Shown here: positions 45,942 to 49,168 of the stretch, piece after piece
How positions within the stretch are numbered: the stretch's first letter is position 1
Layout of the letters: each line of letters starts with the position of its first letter
Source of the DNA: the human T2T-CHM13v2.0 reference genome, Homo sapiens
Strand: one strand, 5' to 3'
DNA length: 64,000 nucleotides
Assembly (NCBI RefSeq): GCF_009914755.1
Contig: NC_060935.1
Position numbers and translations under genes: made by a program
Notes under the pieces: generated by a model
What the model was told of the DNA's origin: nothing
Seen by the model: only the letters and a program-made list of their open reading frames with translations
The model's database searches: none

Positions 45942-48271
45942 TTTTTTTCTTTTTTTTTTTTTTTTTTTTTGTTTTTTTTGTTTTCTTTCTTTTTTTTTTT
46001 TTATTATACTCTAAGTTTTAGGGTACATGTGCACATTGTGCAGGTTAGTTACATATGTATACATGTGCCATGCTGGTGTGCTGCACCCACTAATGTGTCA
46101 TCTAGCATTAGGTATATCTCCCAATGCTATCCCTCCCCCCTCCCCCAACCCCACCACAGTCCCCAGAGTGTGATATTCCCCTTCCTGTGTCCATGTGATC
46201 TCATTGTTCAATTCCCACCTATGAGTGAGAATATGCGGTGTTTGGTTTTTTGTTCTTGCGATAGTTTACTGAGAATGATGGTTTCCAATTTCATCCATGT
46301 CCCTACAAAGGATATGAACTCATCATTTTTTATGGCTGCATAGTATTCCATGGTGTATATGTGCCACATTTTCTTAATCCAGTCTATCATTGTTGGACAT
46401 TTGGGTTGGTTCCAAGTCTTTGCTATTGTGAATAGTGCCGCAATAAACATACATGTGCATGTGTCTTTATAGCAGCATGATTTATACTCATTTGGGTATA
46501 TACCCAGTAATGGGATGGCTGGGTCAAATGGTATTTCTAGTTCTAGATCCCTGAGGAATCGCCACACTGACTTCCACAATGGTTGAACTAGTTTACAGTC
46601 CCACCAACAGTGTAAAAGTGTTCCTATTTCTCCGCATCCTCTCCAGCACCTGTTGTTTCCTGACTTTTTAATGATTGCCATTCTAACTGGTGTGAGATGA
46701 TATCTCATAGTGGTTTTGATTTGCATTTCTCTGATGGCCAGTGATGATGAGCATTTCTTCATGTGTTTTTTGGCTGCATAAATGTCTTCTTTTGAGAAGT
46801 GTCTGTTCATGTCCTTCGCCCACTTTTTGATGGGGTTGTTTGTTTTTTTCTTGTAAATTTGTTTGAGTTCATTGTAGATTCTGGATATTAGCCCTTTGTC
46901 AGATGAGTAGGTTGTGAAAATTTTCTCCCATTTTGTAGGTTGCCTGTTCACTCTGACGGTAGTTTCTTTTGCTGTGCAGAAGCTCTTTAGTTTAATGAGA
47001 TCCCATTTGTCAATTTTGGCTTTTGTTGCCATTGCTTTTGGTGTTTTAGTCATGAAGTCCTTGCCCATGCCTATGTCCTGAATGGTAATGCCTAGGTTTT
47101 CTTCTAGGGTTTTTATGGTTTTAGGTCTAACGTTTAAGTCTTTAATCCATCTTGAATTAATTTTTGTATAAGGTGTAAGGAAGGGATCCAGTTTCAGCTT
47201 TCTACATATGGCTAGCCACTTTCCCCAGCACCATTTATTAAATAGGGAATCCTTTCCCCATTGCTTGTTTTTCTCAGGTTTGTCAAAGATCAGATAGTTG
47301 TAGATATGCAGCGTTATTTCTGAGGGCTCTGTTCTGTTCCATTGATCTATATCTCTGTTTTGGTACCAGTACCATGCTGTTTTGGTTACTGTAGCCTTGT
47401 AGTATAGTTTGAAGTCAGGTAGCATGATGCCTCCAGCTTTGTTCTTTTGGCTTAGGATTGACTTGGTGATGCAAACTCTTTTTTGGTGCCATATGAACTT
47501 TAAAGTAGTTTTTTCCAATTCTGTGAAGAAAGTCATTGATAACTTGATGGGGATGGCATTGAATCTATAAATTACCTTGGGCAGTATGGCCATTTTCACG
47601 ATATTGATTCTTCCTACCCATGAGCATGGAATGTTCTTCCATTTGTTTGTATCCTCTTTTATTTCATTGAGCAGTGGTTTGTAGTTCTCCTTGAAGAGGT
47701 CCTTCACGTCCCTTGTAAGTTGGATTCCTAGGTATTTTATTCTCTTTGAAGCAATTGTGAATGGGAGTTCACTCATGATTTGGCTCTCTGTTTGTCTGTT
47801 ATTGGTGTATAAGAATGCTTGTGATTTTTGTACATTGATTTTGTATCCTGAGACTTTGCTGAAGTTGCTTATCAGCTTAAGGAGATTTTGGGCTGAGTCA
47901 ACAGGGTTTTCTAGATATACAATCATGTCATCTGCAAACAGGGACAATTTGACTTCCTCTTTTCCTAATTGAATACCCTTTATGTCCTTCTCCTGCCTGA
48001 TTGCCCTGGCCAGAACTTCCAACACTATGTTGAATAGGAGTGGTGAGAGAGGGCATCCCTGTCTTGTGCCAGTTTTCAAAGGGAATGCTTCCAATTTTTG
48101 CCCATTCAGTAAGATATTGGCTGTGGGTATGTCATAGATAGCTCTTATTATTTTGAGATACGTCCCATCAATACCTAATTTATTGAGAGATTTTAGCATG
48201 AAGGTTGTTGAATTTTGTCAAAGGCCTTTTCTGCATCTGTTGAGATAATCATGTGGTTTTTGTCTTTGGTT
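45942..48271 (-). mobile_element. Chimeric L1: L1HS-Ta-type 3' about 0.9 kb + older L1PA body; 663-codon open ORF2 fragment
   Basis: poly(T) 45942-46002; Ta ACA (46094-46096) and G (46011); ORF 46208-48199 includes the RT motif FADD and the C-terminal domain. Confidence 0.9.
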
Positions 48272-48275
48272 ATAT

Positions 48276-49168
48276 CAAATTTACAAGAAAAAAAAAAACC
48301 CGTCAAAAAGTGGGCGAAGGACATGAACAGACACTTCTTAAAAGAAGACATTTATGCAGCCAAAAAACACATGAAAAAATGCTCACCATCACTGGCCATC
48401 AGAGAAATGCAAATCAAAACCACAATGAGATACCATCTCACACCAGTTAGAATGGCAATCATTAAAAAGTCAGGAAACAACAGGTGCTGGAGAGGATGTG
48501 GAGAAATAGGAACACTTTTACACTGTTGGTGGGACTGTAAACTAGTTCAACCATTGTGGAAGTCAGTGTGGCGATTCCTCAGGGATCTAGAACTAGAAAT
48601 ACCATTTGACCCAGCCATCCCATTACTGGGTATATACCCAAAGGACTATAAATCATGCTGCTATAAAGACACATGCATACGTATGTTTATTGTGGCACTA
48701 TTCACAATAGCAAAGACTTGGAACCAACCCAAATGTCCAACAATGATAGACTGGATTAAGAAAATGTGGCACATATACACCATGGAATACTATGCAGCCA
48801 TAAAAAATGATGAGTTCATGTCCTTTGTAGGGACATGGATGAAATTGGAAATCATCATTCTCAGTAAACTATTGCAAGAACAAAAAACCAAACACCGCAT
48901 ATTCTCACTCATAGGTGGGAATGGAACAATGAGAACACATGGACACAGGAAGGGGAACTTCACACTCTGGGGACTGTTGTGGGGTGGGGGGAGGGGGGAG
49001 GGATAGCATTAGGAGATATACCTAATGCTAAATGACGAGTTAATGGGTGCAGCACACCAGCATGGCACATGTATACATATGTAACTAATCTGCACATTGT
49101 GCACATGTACCCTAAAACTTAAAGTATAATAATAATAAAATAAAAATAAAGTCTCTCTTGCCATAAAA
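48276..49168 (+). mobile_element. L1PA3-like 3' segment with poly(A)
   Basis: gctaaatgacgagttaatggg and aaacttaaagtataat (non-Ta); A-tail. Confidence 0.9.

What the first reader, a model, noticed from the sequence alone, without database searches (positions are those of the whole stretch)
45942..49168. Double-tailed chimeric L1: a young Ta-type L1 apparently recombined into an older twin-primed L1
Seen: two L1 3' ends point outward (poly-T at 45942-46002, poly-A at about 49130-49168), forming an inverted repeat with arms of about 860 bp. The left arm has L1HS-Ta diagnostics: ACA at 46094-46096, G at 46011, and ORF2 'GIYPNEYK' and 'DEFISF'. Beyond about 46915 the same continuous ORF carries older residues (PTKWEK, TKAKIDK, LLNEIK). 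The right + strand arm is non-Ta (GAG, A) and begins at 48276 at the L1 position matching 46861 on the left arm, next to the Ta-to-old switch zone. Neither end has a partner TSD. Inference: an older 5'-inverted (twin-primed) L1PA3-like copy spanned about 46862-49168. A later Ta cDNA primed at about 45942 and annealed to the homologous end of the inverted segment. That would delete the intervening target DNA and the old left TSD, and rebuild a seamless 663-codon ORF2 fragment. It would be a human-specific, possibly polymorphic insertion-plus-deletion about 200 bp past the OOSP2 distal poly(A) signal.
Basis: partly seen in the sequence, partly recalled or inferred. Interest (0 to 1): 0.85.

Follow-up and report, generated by a model that had tools for sequence, protein, structure and literature searches.

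The report
Two-tailed mosaic L1 near OOSP2
A very young human L1 tail end is fused, base for base in register, onto an older L1 copy that already had an inverted front half. The result is an L1 block with a tail at each end, a rare but already described by-product of L1 insertion.

Summary
Window 45942-49176 is an L1 block with a poly-T tail on the left and an A-rich tail on the right. Its ends form an inverted repeat of 862 nt at 96%.

The minus-strand L1 (45942-48271) is a mosaic:
- Against full L1HS copies of the same genome it has 3 mismatches in 46003-46914 and 47 in 46915-48269 (Fisher p 4e-8).
- 16 of 16 diagnostic sites up to 46757 carry the L1HS state. 8 of 9 from 46932 on carry the older state.
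- The switch bracket (46758-46931) contains 46861/2, the L1 position where the plus-strand arm (48276) begins.

The older inverted segment and the plus arm behave as one old 5'-inverted (twin-primed) L1. No target-site duplication pairs any of the ends.

Best reading: the growing cDNA of a Ta insertion, primed at about 45942, annealed to the first homology offered by the old inverted segment. That removed the old left duplication and an unknown amount of DNA.

Two other routes give the same structure: later recombination between two separate L1s, or break repair copied from a Ta donor elsewhere. The deletion, human specificity and polymorphism could not be tested here. This is a known kind of event and of modest interest.

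The parts
45942..46002 (-). Poly(A) tail of the young L1, read as poly-T on the plus strand. It is 61 nt with 5 interruptions.
   Evidence: sequence. L1HS copies align from about 45972-45981 onward.
46003..46757 (-). L1HS-Ta 3' end: the 3'UTR and the C-terminal part of ORF2. All diagnostic sites are in the young state.
   Evidence: 3 mismatches to full L1HS copies in 46003-46914. 99.7% identity to 7 of 7 L1HS loci. 16 of 16 diagnostic sites are young. The ACA primer matches at 46094-46115. 1 difference in the last 233 residues against solved L1HS ORF2p.
46758..46931 (-). Switch zone from young to old L1. It has no strongly diagnostic site inside and contains 46861/2, the L1 position at which the plus arm begins.
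   Evidence: The last young site is 46757 and the first old site is 46932. The maximum chi-square cut is at 46914. A narrower bracket, 46843-46914, rests on recurrent or slippage-prone sites.
46932..48271 (-). Older L1 ORF2 segment, the inverted 5' part of the old element. It corresponds to about ORF2p residues 588-1035.
   Evidence: 47 differences from L1HS copies in 46915-48269. 8 of 9 diagnostic sites are old. The best other copy in the genome is 97.3% identical. About 27 residue differences in 432 against solved ORF2p.
48272..48275 (.). Inversion junction. These 4 nt (atat) are assigned to neither segment.
   Evidence: The minus-strand alignments end at 48269-48271 and the plus-strand alignments begin at 48276.
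48276..49126 (+). Older L1 3' end, the direct part of the old element: the end of ORF2 and a 3'UTR of GAG type.
   Evidence: 96.0% identity to L1HS copies. The best other copy is 98.0% identical. It has the old state at all 16 diagnostic sites.
49127..49176 (+). Tail of the old element: a degenerate A-rich stretch, 14 nt of other sequence (49151-49164), then A12 (49165-49176).
   Evidence: sequence.
46208..48217 (-). Open frame of 669 codons running through the young-old junction. It is an ORF2 fragment with no start of its own.
   Evidence: It aligns to ORF2p residues 610-1274 of solved structures. The frame is closed upstream by a 1-nt gap at 48204 relative to L1HS copies.

Best explanation
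Step 1, old insertion. An older L1 of the GAG type in the 3'UTR (subfamily not named here) inserted in plus orientation with a 5' inversion, as twin priming produces. It left an inverted ORF2 segment that ended near 46862 and ran to 48271, and a direct 3' segment at 48276-49176.

Step 2, young insertion. In the human lineage a Ta-subfamily L1 RNA was reverse-transcribed from a T-rich nick or break at about 45942 on the plus strand. The cDNA grew rightwards. As soon as it passed the L1 position matching the end of the old inverted segment it became complementary to that segment's exposed strand. It annealed there, in the manner of single-strand annealing or synthesis-dependent strand annealing, and was joined in register.

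Result. Everything between the nick and the old segment was lost, including the old left target-site duplication. No new duplication was made. The product is a block with two tails and an open mosaic ORF2 fragment.

Shown: the mosaic, its breakpoint bracket, the age difference of the two arms, and the lack of duplications.

Inferred: the order of molecular steps, the deletion and its size.
For: - Mosaic. There are 3 mismatches in 912 nt and then 47 in 1355 nt against a full L1HS copy (L003). Two other full copies (L002, L008) show the same pattern. Fisher p is 4e-8 and the maximum chi-square cut is at 46914.
- Diagnostic sites. 16 of 16 are young up to 46757 and 8 of 9 are old from 46932.
- Protein level. 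There is 1 difference in the last 233 residues and about 27 in the first 432 against solved L1HS ORF2p.
- Ta identity. The ACA primer match is unique. The left arm is 99.7% identical to 7 of 7 L1HS loci.
- The arms are not copies of one RNA. They are 95.7% identical, and the right arm is old at all 16 sites.
- The breakpoint bracket contains the L1 position where the plus arm starts. A random position would do so with chance about 0.08 for the 174-nt bracket, or 0.03 for the 72-nt one. This is what a cDNA caught at the first available homology predicts.
- The old parts fit one element. Private sites are 16 of 1355 against 5 of 855 (binomial p 0.18). Both fall among the same deep comparators, L048, L060, L018/L052 and L046. 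The two 5' ends abut with only 4 unassigned nt and no duplication between them.
- Twin priming usually leaves only short internal deletions or duplications, with medians of 14.5 and 22 bp (passages of bioRxiv 10.1101/2024.08.27.596794). This fits an old inverted segment ending near 46862.
- No sibling or source copy of the old parts exists in the genome. The best matches are 97.3% and 98.0%.
- Pairing of a growing L1 cDNA with nearby homologous DNA is already in print, credited to Gilbert et al. 2005 (passages).
Against: - No pre-insertion allele was seen, so the deletion is not shown. The flanks are single-copy in this genome and no ape sequence is available.
- The breakpoint bracket is 174 nt when only strongly diagnostic sites are used. 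The narrower bracket depends on a recurrent site (46915) and on indels in a T-run.
- One of 9 sites in the old part (47999) has the young state.
- The old inverted segment has a longer terminal branch than the right arm, 0.0187 against 0.008.
- In the maximum chi-square test, 1 of 300 permutations reached the observed value.
- The left junction is T-rich, but the endonuclease site cannot be reconstructed because its downstream half is gone.
- Only 40 of several thousand candidate copies were scored in each genome search, so closer copies could have been missed.
Confidence: 0.6

Rival explanations
1. Two separate events followed by recombination. A Ta L1 inserted normally, in minus orientation with its own duplications, some distance to the left of the old 5'-inverted L1. 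Later, unequal homologous recombination or single-strand annealing between the two like-oriented L1s deleted the DNA between them and left a hybrid (an L1 recombination-associated deletion).
For: It gives the same in-register mosaic with unmatched flanks. Recombination between L1s that causes deletions is cited in the reference list of PMC5105311 (Han et al. 2008, seen as a citation only).
Against: The exchange lies within at most about 70-100 nt of the end of the homology available in the old segment, which spans about 1400 nt. With exchange points spread evenly this has a chance of roughly 0.05-0.1. Homologous exchange also normally needs homology on both sides.
Confidence: 0.17
2. Break repair copied from a Ta donor elsewhere. 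A break at the left edge of the old inverted segment was repaired by invasion of an L1HS-Ta copy at another locus. Synthesis ran through that copy's 3' end and tail, and the end was joined to the left flank. This is ectopic gene conversion or synthesis-dependent strand annealing with end joining.
For: It yields the same structure and also places the switch near the end of the old segment. Gene conversion involving the Ta subfamily is mentioned at a rate near 2% in a passage of PMC554112. Repair of a break in a LINE by other LINEs is cited in PMC1920257 (Tremblay 2000, citation only).
Against: It needs a one-sided invasion plus an end joining that happens to fall inside the donor's tail. No donor flanking sequence is visible between 45941 and the poly-T. 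The 61-nt T-rich tail abutting a T-rich site looks like ordinary target priming.
Confidence: 0.13
3. An ancient two-tailed pair partly overwritten. The old minus-strand L1 had its own 3' end and tail at 45942, from two old insertions or one odd event. Only its last 900 nt were later converted to Ta sequence.
For: Partial conversion of older elements by younger ones is reported for Alu and mentioned for Ta L1 (passage of PMC554112).
Against: The two 5' ends abut with 4 nt between them and no duplication, which two independent insertions cannot give. As a single twin-priming event it would need an internal duplication of about 860 nt plus a tail, against reported medians of 22 bp. The conversion tract would have to end by chance at the arm boundary, with a chance of 0.03-0.08. 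The left tail is far less decayed than the right one.
Confidence: 0.05
4. One synchronous event with two cDNAs. Two L1 reverse transcriptions at the same time joined head to head, as in the two-tailed L1 bridges seen in tumours.
For: [quoted passage not shown]
Against: The arms differ at 35 positions in 875. They carry opposite states at all 16 subfamily-diagnostic sites, and the old parts carry private changes of their own. The two arms therefore differ greatly in age. The minus-strand element is itself a mosaic.
Confidence: 0.02

Closest known systems
Chimeric L1s and L1 insertion-associated deletions, in which a new L1 cDNA joins an endogenous L1 (Gilbert et al. 2002 and 2005, Symer et al. 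2002 in cultured cells; Han et al. 2005 in human and chimpanzee genomes)
   Same: A new L1 3' end with a tail is fused in register to a pre-existing L1. There is no target-site duplication and a presumed loss of the DNA between them. Pairing of the growing cDNA with nearby homologous DNA is credited to Gilbert 2005 in passages of bioRxiv 10.1101/2024.08.27.596794. About 2% of human-specific L1 insertions delete target DNA (passage of PMC1920257).
   Different: Here the captured partner is the inverted half of an older twin-primed L1, so the product has a tail at each end. The deletion is not shown. The four primary papers were not held, so what they contain beyond those passages is recalled.
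Twin-primed (5'-inverted) L1 insertions (Ostertag and Kazazian 2001)
   Same: The old element has an inverted 5' segment directly abutting a direct 3' segment with a tail. The inversion point is about 860 nt before the L1 3' end. I estimate this as near 5.16 kb, using a recalled L1 length. A median of 5.15 kb is given in a passage of the 2024 preprint.
   Different: The left duplication is missing, and the outer end of the inverted segment is overwritten by Ta sequence. The usual small deletion or duplication at the inversion point therefore cannot be measured. The 2001 paper was not held.
Endonuclease-independent (non-classical) L1 insertions (Sen et al. 2007, PMC1920257)
   Same: There are no duplications and DNA is probably lost. 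3 of their 21 loci lie in pre-existing L1s.
   Different: Those insertions mostly lack a tail and a T-rich priming site, whereas this one has a 61-nt tail. This locus is not in their table, whose only chr11 entry is at 34.67 Mb.
L1 recombination-associated deletions (Han et al. 2008)
   Same: A hybrid L1 made from two like-oriented copies, with unmatched flanks.
   Different: The exchange here sits at the very edge of the available homology. The paper was not held and was seen only as a citation.

Membership tests
L1HS-Ta (left arm 45942 to about 46860) | ACA trinucleotide in the 3'UTR (GAG in L1PA2 and older, ACG in pre-Ta) | tested here: met
   The primer ending in ACA matches at 46094-46115 on the minus strand with 0 mismatches and is unique in the window. 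The meaning of ACA, GAG and ACG comes from passages of PMC7026601.
L1HS-Ta (left arm 45942 to about 46860) | Near identity to other L1HS copies, and the young state at sites that separate L1HS from older copies | tested here: met
   99.7% identity to 7 of 7 L1HS loci. 16 of 16 diagnostic sites are young, including 46011.
L1HS-Ta (left arm 45942 to about 46860) | Poly(A) tail and flanking target-site duplications of a standard insertion | tested here: not met
   The tail is present. No duplication was found: the best match between the flanks is reached by 139 of 500 shuffles. The sequence is therefore Ta, but the insertion is not a standard one.
L1HS-Ta (left arm 45942 to about 46860) | Absent from the orthologous site of other apes | not testable with these tools
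   No primate genome other than the window's own is held.
Twin-primed (5'-inverted) L1 (old element, about 46862-49176) | An inverted 5' segment abutting a direct 3' segment that ends in a tail | tested here: met
   The minus-strand L1 runs to 48271 and the plus-strand L1 starts at 48276, with 4 nt between them. The tail is at 49127-49176.
Twin-primed (5'-inverted) L1 (old element, about 46862-49176) | The two segments are adjacent in L1 coordinates, with only a short deletion or duplication | tested here: inconclusive
   The old state is seen from 46932 (or 46915). The plus arm starts at the equivalent of 46861/2. The outer end of the old segment is overwritten, so the gap or overlap can only be bounded to about -70 to +104 nt.
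Twin-primed (5'-inverted) L1 (old element, about 46862-49176) | Both segments come from one RNA (same subfamily and age) | tested here: inconclusive
   Compatible. Private sites are 16 of 1355 against 5 of 855, p 0.18. Identity to L1HS is 96.4% and 96.0%. The tree neighbours are shared. However, the terminal branches differ (0.0187 against 0.008) and resolution is low.
Twin-primed (5'-inverted) L1 (old element, about 46862-49176) | Flanking target-site duplications | tested here: not met
   No copy of the sequence after the right tail occurs at the left. The model explains this by loss at the later event.
Chimeric L1 / L1 insertion-associated deletion | A new L1 joined in register to a pre-existing L1 | tested here: met
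   The alignment to L1HS copies is continuous across the switch with no indel, and the frame is open across it.
Chimeric L1 / L1 insertion-associated deletion | Loss of target DNA relative to the pre-insertion allele | not testable with these tools
   The flanks are single-copy in this genome. No ape or other human haplotype is available.
Chimeric L1 / L1 insertion-associated deletion | An endonuclease-type T-rich priming site at the tail junction | tested here: inconclusive
   The left flank ends in ...cttca followed by the T run. The downstream half of the site is missing.

The most novel reading that the evidence does not exclude
This is a germline, human-lineage record of an L1 cDNA being captured at the first stretch of homology it reached, at most about 70-175 nt, at the end of an older inverted L1.

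The priming nick may even have re-used the old element's own TTTT/AAAA target site on the opposite strand. In that case only the old left duplication was lost.

If the allele still segregates in people, it would be a natural before-and-after pair for studying how L1 intermediates are resolved. It would also be an 860-nt inverted repeat lying just downstream of an oocyte-expressed gene.
Probability: 0.2. Interest if true: 0.45.

Novelty: new member of a known kind. Interest (0 to 1): 0.3.

Why it matters
The locus shows, in a finished human genome, the outcome of a process mostly known from cell-culture assays and tumour genomes: a new L1 copy resolved against an old one rather than by the normal second-strand step. 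Because the breakpoint lies at the edge of the available homology, it bears on how little homology suffices and when capture happens.

In practical terms, repeat annotation will split this block into three L1 pieces. A Ta insertion without duplications is easily misjudged in insertion catalogues.

No effect on OOSP2 or MS4A3 is shown. The block lies 611 nt past the annotated OOSP2 end.

Tried and rejected
- Paralogues of the flanks, to see the pre-insertion state. Both flanks are single-copy.
- Target-site duplications. Local alignments among the left flank, the middle junction and the right flank gave nothing at the boundaries. The flank-to-flank score was reached by 139 of 500 shuffles. A 14-nt match of 45882-45895 to L1 sequence at the plus arm's start (11 of 500) lies 50 nt from the tail and was set aside as chance. 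Repeat D4 (45745-45766 against 49113-49134, 82%) lies 200 nt from the tail and inside the L1 3'UTR, so it is also chance.
- More L1HS copies. I worked with the 7 L1HS loci in hand, of which 3 span the whole element.
- Naming the old subfamily. No labelled L1 library is available, so only relative placement among unlabelled copies was possible.
- Narrowing the switch to 46843-46914. The sites used recur among unrelated copies or sit in a T-run, so only the 174-nt bracket is firm.
- Literature. Han 2005, Gilbert 2005, Ostertag 2001 and Han 2008 are not held. A search for OOSP2 with L1HS found 0 papers. The locus is not in the table of Sen 2007.
- A single retrotransposed mosaic RNA or a copied source locus was rejected. 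No other copy is closer than 97.3% or 98.0% to the old parts.
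Full report
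**What is there**

Window 45942-49176 is one block of L1 sequence, with unique DNA on both sides. Reading the plus strand, it consists of:
- a 61-nt T-rich run (45942-46002);
- L1 in minus orientation from its 3' end up to 48271;
- four unassigned bases;
- L1 in plus orientation from 48276 to its 3' end;
- an A-rich tail ending in A12 at 49176.

The two outer parts form an inverted repeat of 862 nt at 96%, extended by a 24-nt pair that ends at 46861 / 48276. A gapped alignment gives 875 of 878 columns at 95.7%. The corrections are small: the open frame is 669 codons, the right tail ends at 49176, and the annotated OOSP2 end lies 611 nt upstream.

**The minus-strand element is a mosaic**

A search of the window's own genome with 46003-46900 returned 39 other places at about 100% identity. 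Three of the fetched loci (L002, L003, L008) span the whole 2.3 kb. Against L003 the window has 3 differences in 46003-46914 and 47 in 46915-48269. The other two loci give the same picture. The contrast has Fisher p 4e-8. A maximum chi-square scan puts the cut at 46914, and 1 of 300 permutations reached the observed value.

I then took 58 older L1 copies, found with the old segment and with the right arm as queries. In each of those searches only 40 of several thousand candidates were scored. I listed the sites where all available L1HS loci agree and at least 70% of the older copies have another base. This gave 25 sites:
- The 16 sites between 46011 and 46757 all carry the L1HS base in the window. 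The right arm carries the older base at every one of them.
- Of the 9 sites between 46932 and 48226, 8 carry the older base. Site 47999 carries the young one.

The protein view agrees. Against the L1 ORF2p of solved structures (for example 9k6g and 8uw3), the last 233 residues differ once and the first 432 about 27 times. The last old-type residue is at codon 435, which is 46913-46915.

**Identity of the young part**

The L1Hs-specific primer ending in ACA, printed in PMC7026601, matches once in the window. The match is at 46094-46115 on the minus strand with no mismatch. Passages of that paper call ACA the L1Hs-Ta defining motif and GAG a sign of L1PA2 or older. The right arm reads GAG at the matching place. 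Two of the three differences from L1HS copies (46079, 46453) look like CpG decay when read. The third (46147) is variable among the L1HS copies themselves.

**Where the switch lies**

The firm bracket is 46758-46931. A narrower one (46843-46914) would follow from two observations:
- differences between the left and right arms at 46830-46842;
- the change at 46915.

However, 46915 recurs in scattered copies, the indels sit in a T-run, and the right arm's base opposite 46830 is private to it. The narrow bracket is therefore only likely. Either bracket contains 46861/2, the L1 position where the plus arm begins. For a randomly placed switch along 2270 nt the chance is about 0.08 or 0.03.

**The old parts as one 5'-inverted L1**

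- The two 5' ends abut with 4 nt between them and no duplication, which two independent insertions would not give.
- Both parts are about equally far from L1HS, at 96.4% and 96.0%. Among 44 copies covering both regions, the window's pair of values lies within the observed range, about 1.4 residual standard deviations below the trend.
- Sites where the window's base is shared by at most 5% of older copies number 16 of 1355 and 5 of 855. The binomial p is 0.18, or 0.62 if clustered changes are merged.
- In trees of unlabelled copies both parts fall among the same deep comparators (L048, L060, L018/L052, L046), outside several nested tiers that lead to L1HS. The inverted part has the longer terminal branch, 0.0187 against 0.008.
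- I cannot name the subfamily.
- Passages of a 2024 preprint give medians of 14.5 and 22 bp for the internal deletions and duplications of twin-primed insertions, and a median inversion point at 5.15 kb. An old inverted segment ending near 46862 fits this. One that ran on to its own tail would need an 860-nt duplication.

**Mechanism**

No duplication pairs any two of the three boundaries. The join between young and old is seamless and in frame, so homology guided it.

The reading I favour (0.6) runs as follows:
1. The plus strand at about 45942 primed reverse transcription of a Ta RNA.
2. The cDNA, which is antisense L1 and lies on the plus strand, became complementary to the bottom strand of the old inverted segment as soon as it passed the equivalent of 46862.
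3. It annealed there, and the non-matching DNA between was trimmed.

This explains why the switch sits at the very edge of the old segment. It is the process credited to Gilbert et al. 2005 in the preprint's text.

Other routes:
- Later recombination between a separately inserted Ta element and the old segment (0.17).
- Repair of a break copied from a Ta donor elsewhere (0.13). Both of these give the same product.
- An ancient two-tailed pair later converted (0.05).
- A synchronous two-cDNA event (0.02). This conflicts with the age difference of the arms.

**What remains open**

The deletion, its size, absence in apes and polymorphism in people could not be tested, because only this genome is held. 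One speculative point follows from reading. The left flank ends in T's and the sequence after the right tail begins with A's. The ancestral empty site may therefore have been a TTTT/AAAA site usable on both strands, and the loss could be as small as the old duplication.

The primary papers on chimeric L1s, twin priming and L1-associated deletions were not held. What I say of them beyond the cited passages is recalled. Their tables and supplements might already list this locus.

**Verdict**

This is a real, well-defined mosaic and a further example of a known kind of L1 rearrangement, with the unusual feature of two tails. Its interest is modest unless it proves polymorphic or the deletion removed something functional.

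Noticed in passing
window 49151-49176: Between the degenerate A-rich tail of the old L1 and a pure A12 lie 14 nt (gtctctcttgccat). They start right after an ATAAA-like stretch. This could be a very short 3' transduction with a second tail, or the true start of the old target-site duplication.
   Followed up: partly
window 47467-47475, 47898-47903, 47219-47223, 47539-47542: Differences of the old inverted segment from all other copies come in tight clusters. For example, there are three adjacent bases at 47473-47475 and four changes within six bases at 47898-47903. This suggests multi-base mutation events rather than independent substitutions.
   Followed up: no
window 48204: A 1-nt gap relative to L1HS copies closes the ORF2 frame. 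This is why the open frame starts only at 48217.
   Followed up: partly
window 45743-45748: An AATAAA lies about 195 nt before the L1 tail. The RefSeq exon ends at 45331, and no use of this signal is shown.
   Followed up: no
L004-L007 (own genome, chr19, chr15, chr13, chr12 places): Four of the seven fetched L1HS loci align to the window in pieces or in both orientations. They are probably themselves truncated or 5'-inverted young insertions.
   Followed up: no
window 45987-46861 and 48276-49146: The 860-nt inverted arms with a 1.4-kb spacer could pair as RNA if transcribed through from OOSP2. They could also promote local instability. Neither possibility was examined.
   Followed up: no
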